A stretch of 64,000 nucleotides of DNA from positions 1-64,000 of the IMG/VR virus record IMGVR_UViG_3300021400_000056; one strand, given 5' to 3'. This document shows positions 17,795-45,551 of the stretch, piece after piece. This DNA comes from a virus. Lineage: Duplodnaviria; Caudoviricetes. The notes under the pieces are model-generated. The model had not been told where the DNA came from, made no database searches, and saw only the letters and a list, made by a program, of their open reading frames with translations. How positions within the stretch are numbered: the first letter of the stretch is position 1; each line of letters opens with the position of its first letter. The position numbers and the translations under genes are program-made.

Positions 17795-18670
17795 TTAATC
17801 GTATCTAGGGCACTCTATAGTGTCGTAATCAAGCACAATTACACTCCGGCCATCCGGAAGCTTCTTCGTTTCATTCATCTTTACCCACAGTTCAACTCTC
17901 TGCGGATCCCAACCATTCTTTTCTCCGAATCCGCATTCTTCAAGGCCCCAATTATCGTATAAGATATTGGCCTCGATGAATTCGCCATATCCGAAGTTCA
18001 GTCTAACGTCTGCTACACCATTTTCAATCTGGGCTATAGTTGACGGGAACACCCTGCCGGTTGGTTTATCAAGAAACCACTGCATGACATATCTAGGATC
18101 AGACGACCTCGTGCTGCTTACTTCCTCTACGATCTTTTTCTCGACCTCTTCTTTCTTCTCTTCTCCTACTTCCTCGCCGAGAGCCTTCTTATACTTCTTA
18201 AGAGCCTCGTTTGAGATGTCATAAAGTGCTGTCGCGTCCGCAAGTTTTTTTGTAAGAGACCTGGTCCTCTGGATGTGAATATAATTAGCACCCCACATCA
18301 ATCCGATCGTCGTTACGGCTGTAGCAATAGGAGCTTTAAGAGCAAGCGCTAACTCTACACCTGTATCAATATTAATCTTACGTGTCTCTTTCTTTTTCTC
18401 CTCTTCCGTGTATTTAGGCACCTCTTCATACCCATCGCCTTCAGCGTTATCCTGAATTACAGTTTCCTCGAGCTTTTCGAGTTCCTCTTTCCGCTTCGCC
18501 AAAATATCATCGCATTTCGGCTTAGCAATCCAGAGCTCATATGCTGTGAGACCGAGTCCAAGCGTTGCCCCGATAAGCATGAGTGTCGGCGCGTGCTGCT
18601 TCGCTCCTGCCTTAACGGTGTTCGTAGCAGCGGTTACATTCTCTTTGGAAAATAATTTCTTAATCTCCAT
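17795..18670 (-). CDS. DUF6353-like phage protein (paralog 2)
   Basis: Same layout as 14532-15527; FLDKPTGRVF...LYDNWGL...NGW. Confidence 0.65.
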   Translation of the reverse strand: MEIKKLFSKENVTAATNTVKAGAKQHAPTLMLIGATLGLGLTAYELWIAKPKCDDILAKRKEELEKLEETVIQDNAEGDGYEEVPKYTEEEKKKETRKINIDTGVELALALKAPIATAVTTIGLMWGANYIHIQRTRSLTKKLADATALYDISNEALKKYKKALGEEVGEEKKEEVEKKIVEEVSSTRSSDPRYVMQWFLDKPTGRVFPSTIAQIENGVADVRLNFGYGEFIEANILYDNWGLEECGFGEKNGWDPQRVELWVKMNETKKLPDGRSVIVLDYDTIECPRYD

Positions 18671-18731: not shown

Positions 18732-18801
18732 AAAGAAAGGGAGGATTCGAACCCCCACCTCTAGATAACATCTAGCGCTCTACCATTGAGCTACTTGTCT
18801 C
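18732..18801 (-). tRNA. Degenerate tRNA-Asn(GTT)-like gene
   Basis: GAGACAAG-TA-GCTCAATGGTAGAGC-G-CTAG-ATGTTAT-CTAG-AGGT-GGGGGTTCGAATCCTCC-CTTTCTT; canonical D and T arms, short anticodon stem, bulged acceptor stem. Confidence 0.65.
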
Positions 18802-18882
18802 TCTATTATAGGAAGGAATTTTTTTACGAATTAACCTCCTTTGATTCGAAAAATAAAATATTAAAAAAGAAAAGGAGCGCAT

Positions 18883-20130: not shown

Positions 20131-20180
20131 AATCGTACCTCCTTCTAACTAAGGAGCAAATATAATTACGAATGCCTTAC

Positions 20181-20583
20181 CATTACCATGCCAAATCCAA
20201 CGCCACCCAACTTTACTGTCACCCAACAGAACAACGCTACACCGCCACACGACCTCACCATACGCTACCATTGCATGACTGCACGGATCGTGACTGTACC
20301 GTACCTTAACTGGACATAATTTGACGAGACCTGACCACACTATTACCTTGCTTGACTCATCGAAACATCGCACTACTTTGCCTTTACATTACTAAGCAGG
20401 ACAGGACTTAGCCGTACAGTTGCAACACTAAACTATGCTATGCCGTTACTCAACGCCACAAGACCAGGCTATACCGAACTGTACCATTACGTAACCAAAC
20501 TTCGCCTTGCGACACTACGCCCTTACAGCACACTACTGTGAATTACTTTGCCATTACATTACCATACTAAACGAAACCATCGC
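20181..20583 (-). ncRNA. Periodic GY-NNN array 1 (candidate guide-RNA array)
   Basis: 60 of 65 pentamers on + end in AC/GC; 13 hexamers (mostly NNTTRC) split it into 12 units of 26-41 nt; directly downstream of the RAMP gene. Confidence 0.8.
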
Positions 20584-20607
20584 ATCAAAATATAAAAAGG
20601 AGACCTA

Positions 20608-21222
20608 TTAAAAGGCCTCCTCCCATTCCTTTACAACTTCCCATGTGAAGGTGCCGTATCCAGCATTTCTCCACTGAAGGAAGCCACGAAGCTTTCCGTA
20701 GTTGAGCCATTCTTTGACGTACTTCATGTAGTCGCCAAGAGTGCTTACTGTAAATATAAAGCTAGACCCAGCAGGAACAGTCTCGGAAATAGCCAGAGCA
20801 ACCCTAGGCCCCTGAGCAGTTTCAGCTCTAAGACTTCTCTCAAGTGTCCCCATCTCTCCGTTCATCTCGATCGGATACATACGAGTATCAAAGAAGATAT
20901 TACCGTCGATAATCTTCTTATGCGCCTTAAGATCAGAGCTAAGAGTCTTCTCACCTTTAGCCGCTTTAAGAGAAGAACAAGCAGCCTTAAAGAATCCGGC
21001 GATCTGATGCTTAAATATACAAGGTGTTCCATCAGGTGTGCGAGGGAAGATCGTCATTCCGTTCTCCACAACCTCATCAACACCTACCGCTGCTACTTCA
21101 TCCTCAATAGTGGCAGCATCTGGTGCCTTTGACGCAATATACTTCCTGTAGACCTCAGGATCTCCAGGGCAAGTGCCAAGAACCTTCTCTGTAAATGTTA
21201 CCTTAACTGTCATGTACTTCAT
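20608..21222 (-). CDS. Stand-alone Cas7-like RAMP protein (Vipr-like candidate RNA-guided effector)
   Basis: N-terminal strand VKVTFTEKVLG; P.I..HQIAGFFKAA helix; SETVPAGSSF; C-terminal Gly-rich loop YGKLRGFLQWRNAGYGTF typical of Cas7/Csm3/Csf2 RAMPs; no other cas genes nearby. Confidence 0.8.
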   Translation of the reverse strand: MKYMTVKVTFTEKVLGTCPGDPEVYRKYIASKAPDAATIEDEVAAVGVDEVVENGMTIFPRTPDGTPCIFKHQIAGFFKAACSSLKAAKGEKTLSSDLKAHKKIIDGNIFFDTRMYPIEMNGEMGTLERSLRAETAQGPRVALAISETVPAGSSFIFTVSTLGDYMKYVKEWLNYGKLRGFLQWRNAGYGTFTWEVVKEWEEAF

Positions 21223-21318
21223 AGTGTCTGCTCCTTTTCTTAAAATATAATTTTGTATGAAGTGTTAATTAGTTACCTTAAGTTAAAAAGAAAAAGGAGC
21301 TATAAAAGCTCCCTTGCA

Positions 21319-21597
21319 TCACTTGACCTTCCGGATCTTGTAAGTTGCAGTTACTTGGTTTTCCCCGTACTCCAATACAGTTTCTCGATCGTCGTCTACA
21401 ACAACCTTGAAATTGTCAAATGTGTTTTCATAAGTCGTAATAGATACATCGATCACGCATCTAGCTGTATCTTCATCCGGATACAAGAACCAAGACACCC
21501 CTACAAGACCGTCTTCATCAACATACACGCAAGTTAATAAATATAACTCCTCATCGTTGACACGTTCCTTAATTGCCTTTTCAATTTCGTAATTCAT
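21319..21597 (-). CDS. Hypothetical protein (cassette gene)
   Basis: 92 aa; promoter 21630-21656; terminator GGGAGCTTTTATAGCTCC plus U-tract. Confidence 0.6.
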   Translation of the reverse strand: MNYEIEKAIKERVNDEELYLLTCVYVDEDGLVGVSWFLYPDEDTARCVIDVSITTYENTFDNFKVVVDDDRETVLEYGENQVTATYKIRKVK

Positions 21598-21672
21598 AGT
21601 TACCTCCTTAATAGGCTATTAATAACATCCTATTAAGGGATCAAAAAATATTACGAATCAGAACTATCAAAT

Positions 21673-21977
21673 CTTTACATTACTGCACCATACCATTACA
21701 GGACCCGACTTAATCGCACAGCACTCTACTATAGCCCAGCGTCACTTTACTCTACACTACGGTACCACACCTCGCAATTGCGCTACTCCACGCTACTTTA
21801 CTTAGCCATACAATTACCGAACTCGACATGACTTCACCATACTAATACACCGCTCCACGATGCTTAACCTCGCATTACCTTTACTCTACCACGCCACACC
21901 TCGCCCTACCTTCGCCGTACATAACTGAACAAGGCTAAGCCATTACTGTGCTTCACGTTACGGTACAATGCCTTCGC
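21673..21977 (-). ncRNA. Periodic GY-NNN array 2
   Basis: 48 of 49 pentamers end in AC/GC on +; hexamers at 21673, 21694, 21730, 21776, 21812, 21843, 21879, 21910, 21941, 21972. Confidence 0.8.
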
Positions 21978-21980
21978 AGC

Positions 21981-22010
21981 AAAAAGAAAAGAGCCCTAAA
22001 TTAGGACTCC
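21981..22010 (-). terminator. Intrinsic terminator-like hairpin (near-identical copies at ~38753 and ~40675)
   Basis: GAGTCCTAATTTAGGGCTC followed by TTTTCTTTTT. Confidence 0.65.
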
Positions 22011-22207
22011 TTCATGTGGAAATTGTGGAACATTTCCCAGATATTGCATTCCTCATCAGAAAATCTTCCATCAGGATATACGTCTCTCTCGGCCATGTCG
22101 CGCAAGCCAGCGATGTCCTTTGCAGAATATCTAGGATCTGCAATAGATCTCGTCTTGCGCCTCTCCTCAAGATAGTCATCCTTCAGATAATCATACTTTC
22201 TGTTCAT
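22001..22207 (-). CDS. Hypothetical protein (cassette gene)
   Basis: 68 aa; promoter 22240-22265; AAGGAGG RBS. Confidence 0.55.
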   Translation of the reverse strand: MNRKYDYLKDDYLEERRKTRSIADPRYSAKDIAGLRDMAERDVYPDGRFSDEECNIWEMFHNFHMKES

Positions 22208-22759: not shown

Positions 22760-22993
22760 TCAACAATTACTACGAATTTGAATTGGTATGCCTACCGCCT
22801 TCTCAAGATACGCGCATTGCCGGATAAAATTAACAAGCGCTAATTGCTCATGATTGAGACTGGAAAAGCTAAGTGGTGTTAGTGGAGGAGGACCAAAAGC
22901 TTTTGACTTAATTTTCATAGCTTCACCGACATATTCATAAATATCATTATGAAGATCCTCAGGAATTGTCTTCCATAACTCGTTAATCGTCAT
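22760..22993 (-). CDS. Hypothetical protein
   Basis: Likely start MTINELW after GAGGTG; the longer ORF runs into array 3. Confidence 0.5.
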   Translation of the reverse strand: MTINELWKTIPEDLHNDIYEYVGEAMKIKSKAFGPPPLTPLSFSSLNHEQLALVNFIRQCAYLEKAVGIPIQIRSNC

Positions 22994-23004
22994 AAACCAT
23001 TCAC

Positions 23005-23202
23005 CTCTACTAAACTTGGCTATGCGTCGCTTTACTATTACCCTGCCTAACACTACGGTGCAGCACCTCACTTTAACGGAGCAACACAAAACCGGACTGG
23101 ACTATTGCCATACTAAACCTCACTTCACGATACAAGACCATTACCAAACAGCACTCTAGCATCACTTCATCGCACAGTACCCAACCCCACTTTTGCAGCT
23201 AC
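23005..23202 (-). ncRNA. Periodic GY-NNN array 3
   Basis: 29 of 30 pentamers end in AC/GC on +; hexamers at 23005, 23036, 23072, 23103, 23139, 23155, 23191. Confidence 0.75.
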
Positions 23203-23909
23203 TAGGAATGGTTCATTTTTCTTTCTCCTCTCCTATCACCAGCGGTAACGCAAACGGACATGTAAGTGCAATCAATATGACTTTGACTAATTCTGTAATT
23301 TCTGTCATTATTCTTTCACCTCGATTACATCCACAAGCTGTTGTGTAATGGCGATTTTCGGCTCGCGGAATCCTTTTGCGATTAAGTCCTTTAAACCATC
23401 TTCGACCATGCCGCTTCGGAAGTTCTGCCGAATTTCATCAATCGTAAGACCAGTGTCTTCCGGCGCCATCTCATCCTCGACTTCAAGCAGTGCAATATAT
23501 CGAATTTTAATCATGGTTTTTTCCAGATTACAGCCGTCTCCCTGATCCCATATGTTAGTTAGTTCCCGAGCGATTTCAGGCTGTTGTAATGCGGAAATAG
23601 CCATGTGTATGGCAATTCCGTCATCAATACTCATTACAAAAGGCGTTTCACCTGGAGTATGCACGGCCTTTTTCGCGATTCGTTTCAGCCTGTCGATTAC
23701 TTCTTCTCTGGTCATCCTTCTATCCTTTCTGCTACCTTTTTCGTCACAGCAAAACAAAAAAGAAGAGGGAGAATATCCCCCTCAACTTTTAGCAGCTACT
23801 ACGCCAGCCGCCACAGCTTCGTCATACCACTTTTTCCAAGTTTCAATTAATCTAACCATTTCATACCTCCTTGAAATTATGGTTTAATCCATTAAGAGGA
23901 CGAAATATT

Positions 23910-27559: not shown

Positions 27560-27657
27560 AATGTGCTCCTTTCTTCATATAAATTGCCGTTTGATTAATT
27601 CAAGCTGACAAAAAAAAACAAAAGACCCCGGAAAATATCATTCCGAGGCCTTTAGCC

Positions 27658-27975
27658 TTACTTCATGTACTTCTGTTCGAGATCTTCAAGTTTAAAACAT
27701 CTAGCAACGCGCTTCAAGTCATAAGTAACGTCAGAATACTCGCTAGCCAGCCATGTCATAGCCATAACTCTCAACCAATCTTCACGGTCAACAATAGTAG
27801 TCATATCTTCCATTTTCTTCCAGAGATCCACCATCCTCTGACAGTATGAATCATTGTAGAAAATACTTCTATGACTCCTATCCGTAAAGTAGTCTTTTGT
27901 TATACCTAAGATATCCTCGCCAATTGTTTCTTCAAACTCTTTCTTGTCTTCAAGCCATCTTTTCGTATAACTCAT
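27658..27975 (-). CDS. Hypothetical protein (cassette gene)
   Basis: Start MSYTK; promoter 28013-28039; terminator ~27610-27650. Confidence 0.55.
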   Translation of the reverse strand: MSYTKRWLEDKKEFEETIGEDILGITKDYFTDRSHRSIFYNDSYCQRMVDLWKKMEDMTTIVDREDWLRVMAMTWLASEYSDVTYDLKRVARCFKLEDLEQKYMK

Positions 27976-39111: not shown

Positions 39112-39444
39112 TTCATTTGCTCCTTTCATTTAAGAAATATACTAGAAGAAAAAAGAAGAGAGGACTATTCGTCCTCATCCTCTTCGTCTTCAGAATCCTC
39201 CTTTTTAAAGATCTGAATTGCCTTATCTCCGATCTTGCAAACGACCCACAGTCCGCCGACAGCTCCGACGAACATCGCTCCTGTGTAAGTGCCGAGTCTA
39301 AAACCCGCCACCATCATAGTACCGACGTTGTTCAGTTCTGCTGCTACAGCTTTTCCTACGTTCATTGCCAGACCCTTCATAATAAGTTCCTCCTTTACTT
39401 TATATAGGTCTTCTGTTTCATTAAGGCGTCAGAAATTTTTACGA

Positions 39445-39735
39445 TTATTTCTTAATGTCTTCACAAAGAACCATTGGAACGTTTCCGCCAAGTGCATCCG
39501 TAACCTGACAAAAACCGTAATCATTAATGCAAGTAACAATATCGTGAATCGTCACATTTTCAGCATTATTGAGATCGTCAATAAGCCTATTGATTGTGTT
39601 TGCCGAATGTAAAGAGCCCAACTTAATTCCTCTTACATACCCGAAAATAAGTCCAACTCCGAGACACGCTACTCCGACCTTAACTGTTGTTTTATTCTTA
39701 TCCCACCAAGCCGATACTTTCTTTTTAAGTTCCAT
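39445..39735 (-). CDS. Membrane protein
   Basis: WWDKNK followed by a TM helix. Confidence 0.55.
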   Translation of the reverse strand: MELKKKVSAWWDKNKTTVKVGVACLGVGLIFGYVRGIKLGSLHSANTINRLIDDLNNAENVTIHDIVTCINDYGFCQVTDALGGNVPMVLCEDIKK

Positions 39736-39766
39736 TTCATAAGCTCCTTTCATTTTAAGAAATATA

Positions 39767-40273
39767 CTATTCAAATAGCATACGAACAGCTTCGATATCT
39801 ATAGGTGCATCGATAACGCTTTCTTCCACGAAAAAGTCGAAACTGACGCGGTAATCTGGGAAACCCACATATCGCCAATCTAGTCTTTCCTTAGTTTCTA
39901 TTCCATTTTTGTAAATATACTCAGGGACAAGGCTTGACGGAGCAACACCCCTGATTGCTTCGATCGCTTGTTCCAAGCTAGAATATGATCCAACGATAAA
40001 GTAGCCGCTCAAATTGTCATTAAGATCCTCTACAGGAATGTCATATGAGCATTTAACCAAATATACTTTTTCAGGTCCATCAACTTTAAGATAACCGACG
40101 CTGCAGCCCAACGATTCCGCAAGCTTATCATAGACTTCCTGTTTTCTAGGGCGTACATTTTTCAGCTCATAATTGACATACGCTCGTCTAGAAATTCCTA
40201 TAGACTTAGCGATCTCTGCCTGAGTCAGTCTTTGTTTAAGTCTAAGAATTTTAAGTTTCTTACCAAATTCCAT
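39767..40273 (-). CDS. XRE-family HTH regulator fused to an LGVF..EA-type domain
   Basis: FGKKLKILRLKQRLTQAEIAKSIGISRRAYVNYE; C-terminal VYLV...VGSYSSLEQAIEAI. Confidence 0.8.
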   Translation of the reverse strand: MEFGKKLKILRLKQRLTQAEIAKSIGISRRAYVNYELKNVRPRKQEVYDKLAESLGCSVGYLKVDGPEKVYLVKCSYDIPVEDLNDNLSGYFIVGSYSSLEQAIEAIRGVAPSSLVPEYIYKNGIETKERLDWRYVGFPDYRVSFDFFVEESVIDAPIDIEAVRMLFE

Positions 40274-40298
40274 TTCATAAACCCCTTTCATTTTAAGA

Positions 40299-40625
40299 TT
40301 ATAATAAGAAATCATTATCAGGATAATAAATGACGTCGGTATTTATCTCGTCGATTCTGACGATGTATGTCCAAGTGGATCTTCCCCAATCGGTAGCTTC
40401 AACGATTCGCTCTGTCCAGCTATCCCCACTGTTAATTTTATCATCGTTAATTCTTTCCATTTCACAAGGCCATGATTTTGTGAAGCTGTTAACGTCGAGA
40501 TTTTTAACAGCTTCAATCGCTTCGTCCAGATTGTGAAATACTCCTAAAAATTTTTGCGCATGAAAATAATCTTCATAATGCCCATCGTTCTCTACAAAAC
40601 ATTCGACTTTGTACATAGTGGCCAT
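40299..40625 (-). CDS. Hypothetical protein (LGVF..EA family)
   Basis: MYKV...FLGVFHNLDEAIEAV. Confidence 0.6.
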   Translation of the reverse strand: MATMYKVECFVENDGHYEDYFHAQKFLGVFHNLDEAIEAVKNLDVNSFTKSWPCEMERINDDKINSGDSWTERIVEATDWGRSTWTYIVRIDEINTDVIYYPDNDFLL

Positions 40626-40726
40626 TTCATAAGCTCCTTTCATTATTTGAAATATGCTAAAAGAAAAAAGAAAAGAGCCCTAAAATTAGGACTCTGCCAA
40701 CTGCGCGACCAGCGCCGGGCGAGTGC

Positions 40727-40879
40727 TTACGCCCAGAAGTACCAGTCGAGGACCACGTCCCCGGACCGATTGTAGTCGCGTACAATCATGTCCGGAGTAT
40801 AGTTCTCGTCATAGTGCTCCTTGACGTCTACAAAATCGCCAGTGACCTGGTCAACGTAAGTTATGTTAATTACTCCCAT
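40727..40879 (-). CDS. 50-aa protein (cassette gene, not in ORF track)
   Basis: MGVINITYVDQVTGDF...DWYFWA; AAAGGAG RBS; promoter 40905-40930. Confidence 0.5.
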   Translation of the reverse strand: MGVINITYVDQVTGDFVDVKEHYDENYTPDMIVRDYNRSGDVVLDWYFWA

Positions 40880-40943
40880 TTCATTTACTCCTTTCTTTTT
40901 GTTTCATTAAGGCATCAAAAATTTTTACGAGACAAAAAAAAAA

Positions 40944-41077
40944 GAGAAGCCTAGATCGCTTCTAACGATCGTCTCTTGAATTTAGACAAAGTCCAACTCA
41001 AGCGTTCTCCAGTTAAACTATTATCGGGGTTGGGCCTCTTCGGCCTCGCCATCTACGCTATTCCCCGTCAGCTTCTC
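40944..41077 (-). ncRNA. Structured ncRNA (~135 nt) in its own promoter cassette
   Basis: Closing stem GAGAAGC/GCTTCTC, three internal helices, then a U-tract of ~10; promoter 41077-41102. Confidence 0.6.
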
Positions 41078-42568
41078 ATTAAAGCATGAAAATTTTTTAC
41101 GACTTTCATAAAAGAAAAACCCCGGACAAGAATCGTTATCCGAGGTGCATTCATTGTACTTTTCTGAATTATCGTTCACACAAATATACTCATCTTCGAT
41201 CTCAAGATGGTATAGGCAGTCTTTACATGTTTTCATCCGCTTCCGATTCCTCCAAAATACGATCAATCGTATCTGCTAAATGGTTAAAGTTCTTTCTATC
41301 GATCCCGTCTTTAGAAATTAAAAACCCTTCATTAAATTTTTCCTGCAAGAATTTTCTTATAACTCTAACTCCTGAAATATACACAAAAGATCCAACAGCA
41401 TTCCCGCTCAACTGATAACGCAGACCGTCATACCCTTCGATTTTAATAAGCCCGATCTTTTCAAGAAAATATACCAATTTCCTCTGCTTGTCATTAACCA
41501 CCACGATTGTTGTATTCTCGTTCCTCATACATTACCTCTTTATAGTCTTCAACAAATGCTTTAAAATGAATCAGATCATTTCTCATCTGGTTCATAAGGA
41601 CTGTTTTTTCAAGTTTACCATATCCAGCAGGCATGTCAATTTGTTTCAGATAAGGCCTTATCTGAGTATAAATCCTAATTCTTTCATCTTCATTCATGTC
41701 ATAAACTCCTCTTCGTTAATCGGAAATATACTTAGAAAAAAGAAAAGAATCATAGGACTGAATTCTTTTTTCTCTTCAATCCTATGATCCCTAAAACCTA
41801 CCGATGTTCGAACCCATTCGCGAGCAGATACCTCTGCTGGGAAAGATCCTTAGCATCAACAATGATACTATCATTCGTGACCTCAAACTGATCATTATCG
41901 ACATCATAGCCGCTAACGATCATCCTTGCCATCAGCATCGTAGTATCATCATCTGTTACTCTAAGCTTCTTTTCCATCTTCATTGTATTGTCCTCCTTAT
42001 ATGGAAACGTTCATTTTAGTTTCTATTAAAGGACAAGAAATTTTTACGATTGGCTGTTTTCGTCTGAAATATCAGCTATGTCTTCACGAAGAACGTTAAA
42101 CTTCTCGTTCTCGAACTTTGCTTTAAGCTCGAGATTACGACTAATCAACCGATCTACTGTATTCACTCCTTTCTGCGCGCTGACTGCATTTTCAAGCGCC
42201 TCAGTTACGGCCTCTTCATACTCAGACTTAAGGTTCCTAAGCCTCTTAAGATTTTCATCAAGCAACTTGATCTTCTCTTCGTACATGAATGCTCCTTTCA
42301 AAATATCACTTCAATGCCTATCTCATATAGTTCAATAGGAAAAAGAAGAGAGGACCGATTAAGTCCTCCCATCTTAGATCACTTCTTCTTTTCTCTTTCT
42401 TTGAGTTTCTTTTCGACCGCATCGTCGATCTGCTTTTCCTGCAGCTTACTCGGGATGATAAAACTCCCGATAGCACACACTACTCCGCCGATCATCAGTA
42501 ATACTGTAGACATATAAAACCTCCTTGAATTTGAAATTTACTGTGTTCTATTAAGACATCAAAAATAA

Positions 42569-43006
42569 TTACGAATCCAGAACCTCAATCACATCCGGGT
42601 TCCATACGACAATTGAGTCGACATCCCATGAGTAAAACAGATTCGTATCATGAAGCTCGCACCAGTTCTCACTCAGATGTACCTCCATCGCATCGAATTC
42701 AGAGTAGATTCTGTTAAGATCCAATTTGCATCCGAAAAAGTGTGGATTAAGAGTGGTAAAAGGCTCGACGTCTCTTAAGTGTCTAACATGAAGGACCCTC
42801 GCTCCGTCTTTTAACTTAAATCTAAAATTCATAGCGAGCTGCTCTTCACTTCTAAAATCTTCAGCTTCACACCACTCTCTCCATCCCCAGTCAGTGTCTT
42901 CAGGAGATGCCCAAAGACCGGATGGCTTATCCCATCTGTCGAATTCCTTGACTATAAGTTCAGGCTTAAACACATCGCTCCCACAATGAATATACACACC
43001 TTCCAT
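42569..43006 (-). CDS. Hypothetical protein
   Basis: YIHCG...KPSGLWAS...W.EWC...YSWDVDSIVVWN. Confidence 0.6.
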   Translation of the reverse strand: MEGVYIHCGSDVFKPELIVKEFDRWDKPSGLWASPEDTDWGWREWCEAEDFRSEEQLAMNFRFKLKDGARVLHVRHLRDVEPFTTLNPHFFGCKLDLNRIYSEFDAMEVHLSENWCELHDTNLFYSWDVDSIVVWNPDVIEVLDS

Positions 43007-43095
43007 TTCATACCTCCATTTAGTACTTACAACTACCCTCGATAACAAAAAAAAGAGAAAAGACCCCTAAGATTTTCTCTTAAGGGCCTTTCACC

Positions 43096-43245
43096 TCAAC
43101 TCTCGTCAGTCACCTCCAAGATCGATTCTCCGATCCATCCGCCGAACTTCTCGCCGATCCAACCTCCGATTACCGTTTCCAGTGTCAGGAAACCGATAAA
43201 TGCGAAGATCTTACCAACAAGTACCATTTTAGCTTTTGTAATCAT
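43096..43245 (-). CDS. 49-aa Gly-rich membrane peptide (cassette gene)
   Basis: MITKAKMVLVGKIFAFIGFLTLETVIGGWIGEKFGGWIGESILEVTDES; promoter 43283-43308. Confidence 0.5.
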   Translation of the reverse strand: MITKAKMVLVGKIFAFIGFLTLETVIGGWIGEKFGGWIGESILEVTDES

Positions 43246-44379
43246 AATTATCCTCCTAAAAGTATGATCTTCCAATTTGTTTCATTAAGGGCATAAAAAA
43301 AATTACGAATTATTTGAGCAATTTTGTGATTAATAGCTCAAGCTCTCTTCTTTCTATCTCTCCATTAAGACCAACATAAACTTTGTACTTTCCGTTATCT
43401 GTTGACTCGATTTCGAACGTAGTAAGTTCCGTTGTAATGTCACAGCCGGTTGCTTTTTTGAGCTTTTTGTTTATAAATTTGCATATAAGCCGTTTTAAAA
43501 ATATACTTCTAATCCTCAATTCGTCCATTACTGCTCCTTTCATAAAAAAAAAGAAAGAGCCCCTTATTCAGGGGTGTCTTCCTCTTTGCTAGTTCCTACA
43601 AAATCGCTTATAAGTGAACTAAATCCTCCACTTATTGTGTATGAGATCCCGTCAAAATGCCCACAGATAGCCTGCTGCAATGCGACGTCTAATATCGCTA
43701 TAACGCCAATTGCGAATAGTATAGCTTTAAGTATCGCCATCACTGCAAACAGCCAAACTGCATATACTCTGTATAAACCTCTCTTAATAAGTTCCATATA
43801 GCTGCCCCCTTTAAGCTTTTTGCTATTAAAGAAAGATAAAAATATACGAAAAGAAAGAGAGGCCGAAGCTTCCCTTTCGGTTACTTCTACCTCCTCCCTA
43901 GCCTAGCCATTACGATCCTCGCAAGAATAATTGCTGCTGCAATTACAACAATAGGTACAATGAATTCAAGTATAACTCCGAGTACGATCAGTACTACAGA
44001 AATTATCCCTGCAACAATTGCTGCCAAAATAGTTGTTATTACTGCTAACATATTTCTACCTCCGTAAAATAATGTTCTATGTGCTATTAAAGAGGCAAAA
44101 ATTTTTACGAAAAGAAAAAAGGGAGAGGAGCCGATCTCATTTCGGTCTCCAATCCCGATCTCCATTTAGTCTCGTTTATTCCTCCTTTCATCGTGTAAAA
44201 TTATTAGAATTCCGATCACAATAATGATTAACCCGATCTCCATAAAGTTACCTCCTTTAATTTGAAATATGCCGACTATATACTTCCATCTAATGGGCGA
44301 AAAAAAATACGAATGACAAAAAAAAAGAGGAACCGGAACTTTTACGTTCCGATCCCAAAGTCGATCCTACAAGTTACAA

Positions 44380-44760
44380 TCAGAATTTCCATTTCGGAAT
44401 AAACCCGAGAATCTTGGAAGTTACCGCTCCAACCTCTTCGATTTCTCCGATTCGCTTAGATAGCACAAGTGTCACGACTCCCCCGATCGCACTGCTTCCC
44501 AGTTTTCCGATCATATCTCTGCGAGATTTCTTCTCCTCAGCCAGATTCCGATTGTTTGCATTAACATCATCGGATTCCGCCCTAAAAGAATCCACCGCCG
44601 CATCGTTTAACATCTTAAACTGCTTAACAAGCGATTCTCGAGTTTCCGGATCCTTCTCCGTCCTAAGCTCCTCTAAGATCTCTCTCATACGTTCCTGTAA
44701 CTCAGCACTACCCATAAGTATTTCCTCCTTAGAAATGTGCTTGTATACTTGTTTCTTCAT
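44380..44760 (-). CDS. Hypothetical protein (cassette gene)
   Basis: Probable start MGSAEL after AAGGAGG; promoter motif 44758-44783. Confidence 0.55.
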   Translation of the reverse strand: MKKQVYKHISKEEILMGSAELQERMREILEELRTEKDPETRESLVKQFKMLNDAAVDSFRAESDDVNANNRNLAEEKKSRRDMIGKLGSSAIGGVVTLVLSKRIGEIEEVGAVTSKILGFIPKWKF

Positions 44761-45075
44761 TAGACCCCCAAAAATTTTTACGGATTTTCTACCGTGTTGA
44801 TGACTGTTAAATATACGTGTCTCTTAGACGGAATCTCATCCAGTGGAATGTGAAACTCCATCAGGTAACGATCCCTTGCCGGATCCGATACGTCGACTTT
44901 AAGCACTCCGTCCGGTTTTCTCTTCGTAATGAAAATCCCGAACAAAATGCCAAAAAAGGCGCATCCGAAATATCCAGCAATAACAATAAGATCCATACTT
45001 TTTCTCCTTTCTAAAAGTTTTACAAAAATCCCATTAGGGGAAATTTTGGCAAAAAAAAAAAATAAACAAAAAGAA

Positions 45076-45176
45076 AAAGAGCGAATCGTTGGTTCTGATT
45101 TTTTTATCCGTCATTAAACGTCGCTAAGATCGTCTAACACCGATTTCATCAATCAGTTTCATCAACTCTACTCTTT
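45076..45176 (-). ncRNA. Candidate rod-like ncRNA (~100 nt) in a promoter cassette
   Basis: AAAGAG/CTCTTT, GTTG/CAAC and CTGATT/AATCAG nested pairings; promoter 45177-45203; U-rich 3' flank. Confidence 0.45.
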
Positions 45177-45197
45177 CTATTAAAGGACAGGAATTAT

Positions 45198-45551
45198 TTA
45201 CGAATACCCTTTTCTCTCACTAAGGAGCCAGAAGAACTTAGCTCTAAGATCATCGAACTCGCCCTTACTCAAAGTCACTCCTAACTGAGAGAAGCTAACA
45301 TCTTCGGTTACAGATCTTAAAATATATATACCATACTTCTTGTCTGTATCCACAGCCGTCGTCTCGATCAGCCGGATGCCATTTATTAAATTAGTAAGTT
45401 CTGTTGCAGTATCACCGACGGGATCCTCGCCGTCAGCAAACACCAATCCACTTAGTCTCCTAACACGATCTCTCATCTCGTAATACTGCAAACAGAAATG
45501 CTTCAGCTCTCTGTATCTGTGCGCGGACAACTGATAATTATTTGTTGCCAT
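45198..45551 (-). CDS. Putative phage transcriptional regulator
   Basis: LSAHRYRELKHFCLQY...ILRSVTE...RAKFFWLL; ArpU/RinA-like layout by inference. Confidence 0.5.
   Translation of the reverse strand: MATNNYQLSAHRYRELKHFCLQYYEMRDRVRRLSGLVFADGEDPVGDTATELTNLINGIRLIETTAVDTDKKYGIYILRSVTEDVSFSQLGVTLSKGEFDDLRAKFFWLLSERKGYS

What the first reader, a model, noticed from the sequence alone, without database searches (positions are those of the whole stretch)
20181..20583. Array code is GY/NNN (three free positions), not GGY/NN
Seen in sequence: in array 1 the position that would be the first G of GGY (C on +) is C in only 17 of 65 pentamers, about background, while the GY dinucleotide is ~92% conserved. 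Inference: three variable bases per 5-nt step could specify a contiguous 12-24 nt target, or the third base is an unconstrained skipped position. Either would be a distinct subtype compared with GGY/NN arrays as I recall them.
Basis: partly seen in the sequence, partly recalled or inferred. Interest (0 to 1): 0.8.

Follow-up and report, generated by a model that had tools for sequence, protein, structure and literature searches.

The report
VIPR guide-RNA array, G-Y-N-N-N type
This stretch is one of three guide-RNA arrays of a phage VIPR system (a small Cas7-like protein plus 5-base-repeat RNAs, first described in 2026); its repeats keep only G-Y instead of G-G-Y, a variant the VIPR paper already lists, and whether the freed third base helps to read the target is still open.

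Summary
On the gene (-) strand, 20176-20583 parses into 66 pentamers and 13 hexamers. G-Y starts 61/66 pentamers (92%). The base before G-Y is G in 18/66 (27%; background 24%). The same parser gives 79% G on the canonical GGY/NN arrays of phage SUSP1.

The tract is vrRNA array 1 of a VIPR system. The adjacent 204-aa gene (20608-21222, -) folds as a Cas7-like RAMP. In 159 of 160 homologous loci a co-oriented 5-nt array abuts the gene, and none shows GGY.

It is not a new kind. The VIPR preprint (bioRxiv 10.64898/2026.04.26.720920, Methods) already names YNNNG repeats, which is the same unit written from the Y.

New here: the two residues that read the first G in SUSP1 Vipr (H17, D177) align to T17 and Q183 in this family. 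The residues for the second G and for Y (W178, R179) are kept as W184 and R185.

The freed base varies about as much as the two guide bases. I found no convincing natural target under any skip rule, so whether it is read remains unresolved.

Earlier notes of this scan on this same window (e1-5767839 and others) had already flagged the arrays and the RAMP gene.

The parts
20176..20583 (-). vrRNA array 1: 66 G-Y-N-N-N pentamers cut into 12-13 units of 4-8 pentamers by 13 hexamers (consensus G-Y-A-A-N-G). It opens with GCGATG straight after the hairpin and U-tract.
20595..20624 (-). Hairpin plus U-tract (terminator-like). It overlaps the vipr stop codon and lies directly 5' of array 1.
   Evidence: sequence
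20608..21222 (-). vipr: a 204-aa Cas7-like RAMP with G-loop motif G-x-x-Q-W-R-N-x-G-x-G. It has no Pfam or PHROG family.
21319..21597 (-). 92-aa ORF just upstream of vipr, separated from it by a terminator-like hairpin (21293-21315). Function unknown. It is only a positional candidate for an accessory gene and is absent from the 80 IMG/VR homologous loci.
21632..21656 (-). Exact copy of the phage's repeated TCGTAA-N14-TTAAT motif (putative phage promoter), directly 3' of array 2.
21664..21977 (-). vrRNA array 2: 50 pentamers and 9 hexamers. It opens with GCGAAG after a hairpin and U-tract (21987-22013).
23001..23202 (-). vrRNA array 3: 31 pentamers and 8 hexamers. It runs straight into the ribosome-binding site of the 77-aa ORF at 22760-22993.

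Best explanation
The tract is a guide-RNA (vrRNA) array of a phage-encoded VIPR system.

Inferred from the published SUSP1 system: the array is transcribed with the genes on the - strand. Copies of the 204-aa Vipr RAMP bind it one protomer per pentamer and hold the constant G and Y in protein pockets. The variable bases are presented for pairing with DNA of a competing phage or mobile element, which is then silenced.

Shown here: the constant G-Y corresponds to the second G and the Y of the canonical GGY motif. The first-G position is free, and the two residues that read that G in SUSP1 Vipr (H17, D177) align to T17 and Q183 in this family.

Shown here: hexamers of the form G-Y-A-A-N-G divide each array into about 26-29 short guides of 4-8 pentamers. 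No structured tail was found.

Open: what the freed base does. I lean, at about 45%, to it being a base that is held or tolerated but not read, so the published rule of two paired bases and one skipped target base still holds. Reading of all three bases is about 40% (contiguous about 25%, with a skip about 15%).
For: Fold: the AlphaFold model has pLDDT 84 and pTM 0.82. Foldseek's best PDB hits are the Cas7 of type VII (8z4j_J, E 4.8e-8), Csm3 and Cmr4. An independent aligner gives Z 12.2 to Cmr4 and 12.1 to Csm3, and nearly all listed matches are CRISPR RAMPs.

Association: 80/80 IMG/VR loci and 79/80 MAG loci that encode a homolog carry a G-anchored 5-nt array abutting the gene on the same strand. 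The window's other neighbours are not conserved in the 80 IMG/VR loci, so the gene and array appear to travel as a module.

Repeat logo in relatives (n = 6016 and 6528 pentamers): position 2 is C/T in about 60% and position 5 is G in 21%.

Homology to a proven Vipr: SUSP1 agp039 lies between GGYNN arrays. It aligns to this family with hhalign probability 65% and E 6e-5 over 175 columns. H17 aligns to T17, D177 to Q183, W178 to W184 and R179 to R185. The roles of these residues come from bioRxiv 10.64898/2026.04.26.720927. Across 159 family members Q183 and W184 are invariant, R185 is present in 155, and position 17 is T or S and never H.

Other: arrays of related phages align end to end. Position 1 varies in 5% of columns, position 2 in 18%, and positions 3-5 in 27, 25 and 30%. 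No guide matches the phage's own genome better than shuffled guides, as the preprint reports for VIPR guides. The YNNNG repeat class is named in the preprint.
Against: Strand and processing are therefore inferred from co-orientation.

Arrays 1 and 2 sit between a terminator-like hairpin and the next promoter motif, so transcription needs read-through or an unseen promoter.

The hhalign match to SUSP1 Vipr is only moderate, and the thumb region does not align well. The residue mapping is therefore an inference.

No conserved accessory (vap) gene was identified.

The units hold 4-8 repeats, against the 9-16 repeats described for the tested systems. If only two bases per repeat were read, the shortest units would specify just 8-10 nt. 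This counts against my lean towards an unread third base.
Confidence: 0.85

Rival explanations
1. All three variable bases pair with the target and no target base is skipped. Each unit of 4-8 pentamers would then specify a contiguous 12-24 nt site.
For: With units this short, three read bases give usable specificity and two do not.

Position 5 varies in 30% of columns, less than the 36% at fourfold-degenerate sites of the adjacent gene.

Shine-Dalgarno-like cores appear in 4 of 26 contiguously decoded guides against about 1.5 expected (p about 0.05).

In the strict G-Y subset, the dinucleotide formed across pentamer junctions resembles natural dinucleotide bias (r = 0.54).
Against: The junction signal is not significant (G = 12.2, z = 0.7) and is absent in the larger set (r = -0.15).

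No exact contiguous match to the longest guide turned up in IMG/VR or in JGI metagenomes. Two guides conserved in a close relative gave 0 hits and 1 chance-level hit.

In the SUSP1 structure a thumb passes between paired segments and one target base is flipped out. A target strand with nothing flipped is sterically less natural; this is my inference.
Confidence: 0.25
2. Three bases pair and one target base is skipped after each triplet, so the target has a period of 4.
For: This keeps the one-flipped-target-base geometry of the thumb while using the freed base (inference).
Against: An exact scan for the longest guide under this rule found nothing in IMG/VR. Local searches equalled shuffled controls. 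The lag-correlation pattern predicted for a period-4 target was not consistently seen. The rule would also change the 5:3 RNA:DNA pitch of the known filament.
Confidence: 0.15
3. The tracts act as DNA (protein-binding or curved DNA upstream of promoters) and are not guide RNAs.
For: Arrays 1 and 2 lie between a terminator-like hairpin and a promoter motif. There is no RNA evidence.
Against: The arrays are strictly co-oriented with a Cas7-like RAMP gene in 159/160 loci and never lie on the opposite strand. The same architecture was shown by small-RNA sequencing and pull-down to give guide RNAs in SUSP1.
Confidence: 0.03

Closest known systems
VIPR type II (Escherichia phage SUSP1, Pseudomonas fulva prophage): Vipr plus GGY/NN vrRNAs; bioRxiv 10.64898/2026.04.26.720920 and 10.64898/2026.04.26.720927
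   Same: A small RAMP of about 200 aa with an RRM core, G-loop (W-R kept) and thumb. Phage-encoded. Co-oriented 5-nt repeat arrays on both sides of the gene. The constant G and pyrimidine are kept. No self-targeting.
   Different: The first G of the repeat is not conserved (29% against 79% in SUSP1), and its two reader residues are replaced (T17, Q183). No conserved structured 3' tail was found; units end in a G-Y-A-A-N-G hexamer. Units have 4-8 repeats against 9-16. No recognisable vap1. The decoding rule is untested.
Alternative vrRNA classes named in the VIPR preprint (NNNGG, YNNNG, NNNNG; 'staggered' arrays, fig. S18) and the non-canonical 5-mers of bioRxiv 10.64898/2026.10.21.760802 (WGT/NN, TGH/NN)
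   Same: YNNNG is the same unit as G-Y-N-N-N read from the Y. The long uninterrupted arrays without tails resemble the 'staggered array' description.
   Different: I could not see the figures or data tables, so I cannot say which of the seven types this clade is. The texts held give no decoding rule and no protein rationale for these classes.
Class 1 CRISPR backbone (Cas7: Csm3, Cmr4, type VII Cas7)
   Same: Closest solved folds. A filament of RAMP subunits on a guide RNA, with a thumb that periodically interrupts pairing.
   Different: No CRISPR repeats and spacers, and none of the neighbouring ORFs scanned has a Pfam cas family. The period is 5 nt, not 6, and sequence-specific bases recur in every period.

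Membership tests
VIPR system | Vipr protein: minimal RAMP (RRM core, glycine-rich loop, thumb), about 20 kDa | tested here: met
   204 aa. The AlphaFold model matches Cas7-type RAMPs (Foldseek E 4.8e-8; Z 12.2). hhalign to SUSP1 Vipr gives E 6e-5, with the G-loop W-R conserved.
VIPR system | Tandem pentanucleotide repeat array next to vipr and co-oriented with it | tested here: met
   There are three arrays on the vipr strand. The same arrangement holds in 159/160 homologous loci.
VIPR system | Canonical repeat consensus GGY/NN | tested here: not met
   G-Y is kept (92%), but the first G is at 27-32% per array against 79% in SUSP1. The unit fits the alternative YNNNG class named in the preprint's Methods.
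VIPR system | Mainly phage- or prophage-encoded | tested here: met
   The record is a 94.6-kb virus genome. Homologs lie on IMG/VR contigs and on gut or rumen MAG contigs.
VIPR system | vrRNAs are expressed, processed and bound by Vipr | not testable with these tools
VIPR system | Non-contiguous target recognition (two paired bases, one skipped) | tested here: inconclusive
   No natural target stood above chance under nine skip rules.
VIPR system | Accessory vap gene | tested here: inconclusive
   The neighbouring ORFs have no informative family; a 49-aa HTH-like ORF lies 1.3 kb away. None is conserved in the 80 IMG/VR loci.
VIPR type II (SUSP1-like) | Conserved structured 3' tail (pseudoknot) after each repeat tract | tested here: not met
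   There is no invariant tail between units, which abut through a hexamer. Array 2 folds no better than shuffles (z = -1.3). Rfam finds only a tRNA in the window.

The most novel reading that the evidence does not exclude
[quoted passage not shown] This would be a second, denser VIPR decoding rule that allows guides of only 4-8 repeats.
Probability: 0.35. Interest if true: 0.7.

Novelty: new member of a known kind. Interest (0 to 1): 0.4.

Why it matters
VIPR is a newly described RNA-guided DNA-binding system, and the two-paired, one-skipped code has been tested only for GGY/NN repeats in the papers held here. This window belongs to a very large family: 1462 homologs in the protein search, and loci in many gut and rumen Clostridia MAGs. 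In that family the first G is free.

If the freed base is read, the code is denser and guides can be shorter. That matters for understanding how phages compete and for using Vipr as a programmable binder. If it is not read, the family shows which protein contacts set repeat specificity.

The mapping of H17 and D177 to T17 and Q183 gives a directly testable handle either way.

Tried and rejected
1. A fixed-register period-5 scan does not flag the region. The signal appears only when single-base slips are allowed.

2. Self-targeting: the best matches of 26 window guides in the phage's own 94.6-kb genome equal shuffled controls under nine skip rules.

3. Pooled search: 323 guides from 80 loci were searched against 0.72 Mb of flanking DNA. 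There was no excess. The few exact 'NNNxx' hits were ordinary homology, where the parser had run into downstream genes. Guides of the close relatives L081, L082 and L029 do not hit this genome.

4. IMG/VR exact scans with the longest guide (8 pentamers).
- The NNx pattern gave 8 hits, about the chance number. Third-base agreement was 0-5 of 8. The best hit (L088) is in frame in an unrelated structural gene.
- NNNx gave 0 hits and NNNxx gave 0 hits.
- Two contiguously decoded guides that are conserved in a 94%-identical relative gave 0 hits and 1 hit. The single hit is antisense in an SSB-like gene, where about 2 hits are expected by chance.
- A JGI metagenome scan gave 0 hits.

5. Statistics on the decoded sequence.
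- Junction dinucleotide bias gave conflicting results (r = -0.15; r = 0.54 but not significant).
- Strong lag correlations in the loosely parsed set probably come from unrecognised hexamers.
- Stop triplets are depleted (110 observed, 189 expected), but mostly through general TA depletion.
- Shine-Dalgarno-like motifs are only marginally enriched (p about 0.05).

6. Substitution rates: position 5 at 30% against positions 3 and 4 at 26% is not significantly different (p about 0.13, my calculation). Against the close relative L081 the counts are 1/31, 7/31 and 9/31.

7. Other checks that gave nothing: megablast of the locus against GenBank phages found no match. Pfam and PHROGs gave no family for Vipr. 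The search for relatives of the genome is not available for a virus record.

8. Decoded guides have no sequence reference, so I did not run BLAST on concatenated decoded guides. Only short patterns were typed.

Full report
**What is in the sequence**

All genes in 17-27 kb of the window lie on the - strand. Read on that strand, 20583 to 20176 is a run of five-base units that begin with G and then C or T. A fixed 5-nt frame hides this, because a sixth base is inserted every 4-8 units.

When steps of 5 or 6 are allowed, chains of such units occur only at three places and on one strand only. A parser anchored on G alone recovers the same three tracts, 20172-20583, 21664-21977 and 23001-23202. Their scores are 59.9, 50.3 and 29.9. 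It finds nothing else in the 94.6-kb genome on either strand, and shuffled sequence reaches at most 11.4.

Array 1 has 66 pentamers and 13 hexamers. G-Y opens 61 of the 66 pentamers. The base that would be the first G of GGY is G in 18 of 66. Over all three arrays that figure is 43/147 (29%) against a background of 23.8% (p = 0.12). The identical parser gives 42/53 (79%) on the arrays of phage SUSP1. The three variable positions carry 0.03-0.08 bit each.

**Punctuation of the arrays**

The 30 hexamers have the consensus G-Y-A-A-N-G. They split the arrays into about 26-29 units of 4-8 pentamers. Arrays 1 and 2 both start with GCGAWG directly after a hairpin and U-tract, and a relative's array (L029) opens with the same hexamer. 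No conserved tail lies between units. Array 2 folds no better than shuffles (z = -1.3). Rfam finds only a tRNA in the window.

**The neighbouring protein**

The gene at 20608-21222 (-) encodes 204 aa with no Pfam or PHROG family but with 1462 homologs. Its model (pLDDT 84) matches Cas7-type RAMPs:
- type VII Cas7, E 4.8e-8, followed by Csm3 and Cmr4;
- Z 12.2 and 12.1 with an independent aligner, with nearly all listed matches being CRISPR RAMPs.

**What the literature says**

A 2026 preprint describes VIPR systems: a minimal RAMP (Vipr) plus vrRNAs made of GGY/NN pentamers. The NN bases pair with DNA and every third target base is skipped. The systems are mostly phage-borne and silence competing elements.

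Its Methods state that loci without YNNGG repeats revealed alternative vrRNAs made of NNNGG, YNNNG and NNNNG repeats. YNNNG is G-Y-N-N-N read from the Y. Its text also mentions tail-less 'staggered' arrays. A later preprint lists further non-canonical 5-mers.

None of the four VIPR papers in the library gives a decoding rule for these classes.

**Relatives**

All 80 IMG/VR loci and 79 of 80 MAG loci with a homolog carry a same-strand 5-nt array abutting the gene. The MAGs are mostly gut and rumen Clostridia. In about 12,500 pentamers, position 2 is C/T in about 60% and A in about 25%. Position 5 is G in 21%. GGY is therefore absent across the family.

None of the window's other genes recurs in the 80 IMG/VR loci. 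A 28%-identical relative in Hydrogenobaculum phage 1 has the same kind of array.

**Why the first G is free (inference from alignment)**

SUSP1 Vipr (agp039) lies between GGYNN arrays. It aligns to this family with E 6e-5, and MAFFT agrees at the N-terminus and the G-loop.

In the cryo-EM study, G1 is read by H17 and D177, G2 stacks on W178, and Y3 sits against R179. These residues align as follows:

| SUSP1 Vipr | Role in SUSP1 | This family |
|---|---|---|
| H17 | reads G1 | T17 |
| D177 | reads G1 | Q183 |
| W178 | stacks on G2 | W184 |
| R179 | contacts Y3 | R185 |

In 159 family members Q183 and W184 are invariant, R185 is present in 155, and position 17 is T or S and never H. The residues for the two conserved bases are kept and those for the lost base are replaced.

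Loci whose arrays are A-rich at position 2 mostly carry changes at 181-182 beside this motif. They form one or a few clades, so this is only a hint.

**Is the freed base read?**

Arrays of related phages align along their whole length. The share of variable columns by repeat position is:

| Position | Variable columns |
|---|---|
| 1 | 5% |
| 2 | 18% |
| 3 | 27% |
| 4 | 25% |
| 5 | 30% |
| fourfold-degenerate sites of the adjacent gene | 36% |

. Against a 94%-identical relative the substitution counts at positions 1 to 5 are 1, 3, 1, 7 and 9. Position 5 thus behaves like the guide bases, perhaps slightly freer.

Searches for natural targets failed. They covered the phage's own genome, the flanks of 160 loci, exact pattern scans of IMG/VR and one of JGI metagenomes. 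Sequence statistics were weak or contradictory.

Short units argue for three read bases. The thumb geometry and the slightly higher variability of position 5 argue for an unread base. I put an unread base at about 45%, three bases read at about 40%, and other outcomes at about 15%.

**Verdict**

This is a real and well-defined feature: a new member of the published VIPR kind, in the already named YNNNG repeat class. The decoding rule remains the open and testable point.

Noticed in passing
window 18732-18800 (-): A tRNA gene (Rfam RF00005, 47.6 bits) sits among the small early genes, with a copy of the TCGTAA-N14-TTAAT motif (1 mismatch) just upstream at 18805-18829.
   Followed up: no
window, - strand, e.g. 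5523, 19294, 21632, 23891, 28015, 39420-45203: TCGTAA-N14-TTAAT occurs 14 times exactly, and further times with 1 mismatch, always on the - strand. With up to 2 mismatches there are 68 matches against 36 expected by chance. It looks like a phage-specific promoter.
   Followed up: partly
window 23203-23260 (-): Just 5' of array 3 there is a strong ribosome-binding site followed by a 4-codon mini-ORF (ATG AAC CAT TCC TAG). Unlike arrays 1 and 2, array 3 has no terminator-like hairpin before it.
   Followed up: no
L081:758-1287 versus window 20176-20583: A relative whose Vipr is 94% identical shares blocks of guides with array 1, differing by point changes. It carries about 250 nt of extra units at the 5' end and lacks others, so arrays gain and lose whole units.
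   Followed up: partly
L071 and L077 arrays (e.g. L077:4866 onward): Some relatives carry a pentamer pair (GCAAG GCATA) repeated four times in tandem inside the array. A guide like this would point at a repetitive target, or it may be a recent duplication.
   Followed up: no
L059:3414-5115: One IMG/VR relative has a 1.7-kb uninterrupted 5-nt array (263 pentamers), far longer than the others.
   Followed up: no
L171 (SUSP1) 27615-27817: In SUSP1's downstream vrRNAs the first G is itself degenerate (7/12 and 10/14 G, against 12/13 in the upstream one). First-G conservation therefore varies even within a canonical system.
   Followed up: partly
window 17795-18670 (-): A 291-aa DUF6353 protein (Pfam E 1.1e-26). 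A DUF6353 gene also lies downstream of vipr in the close relative L081.
   Followed up: no
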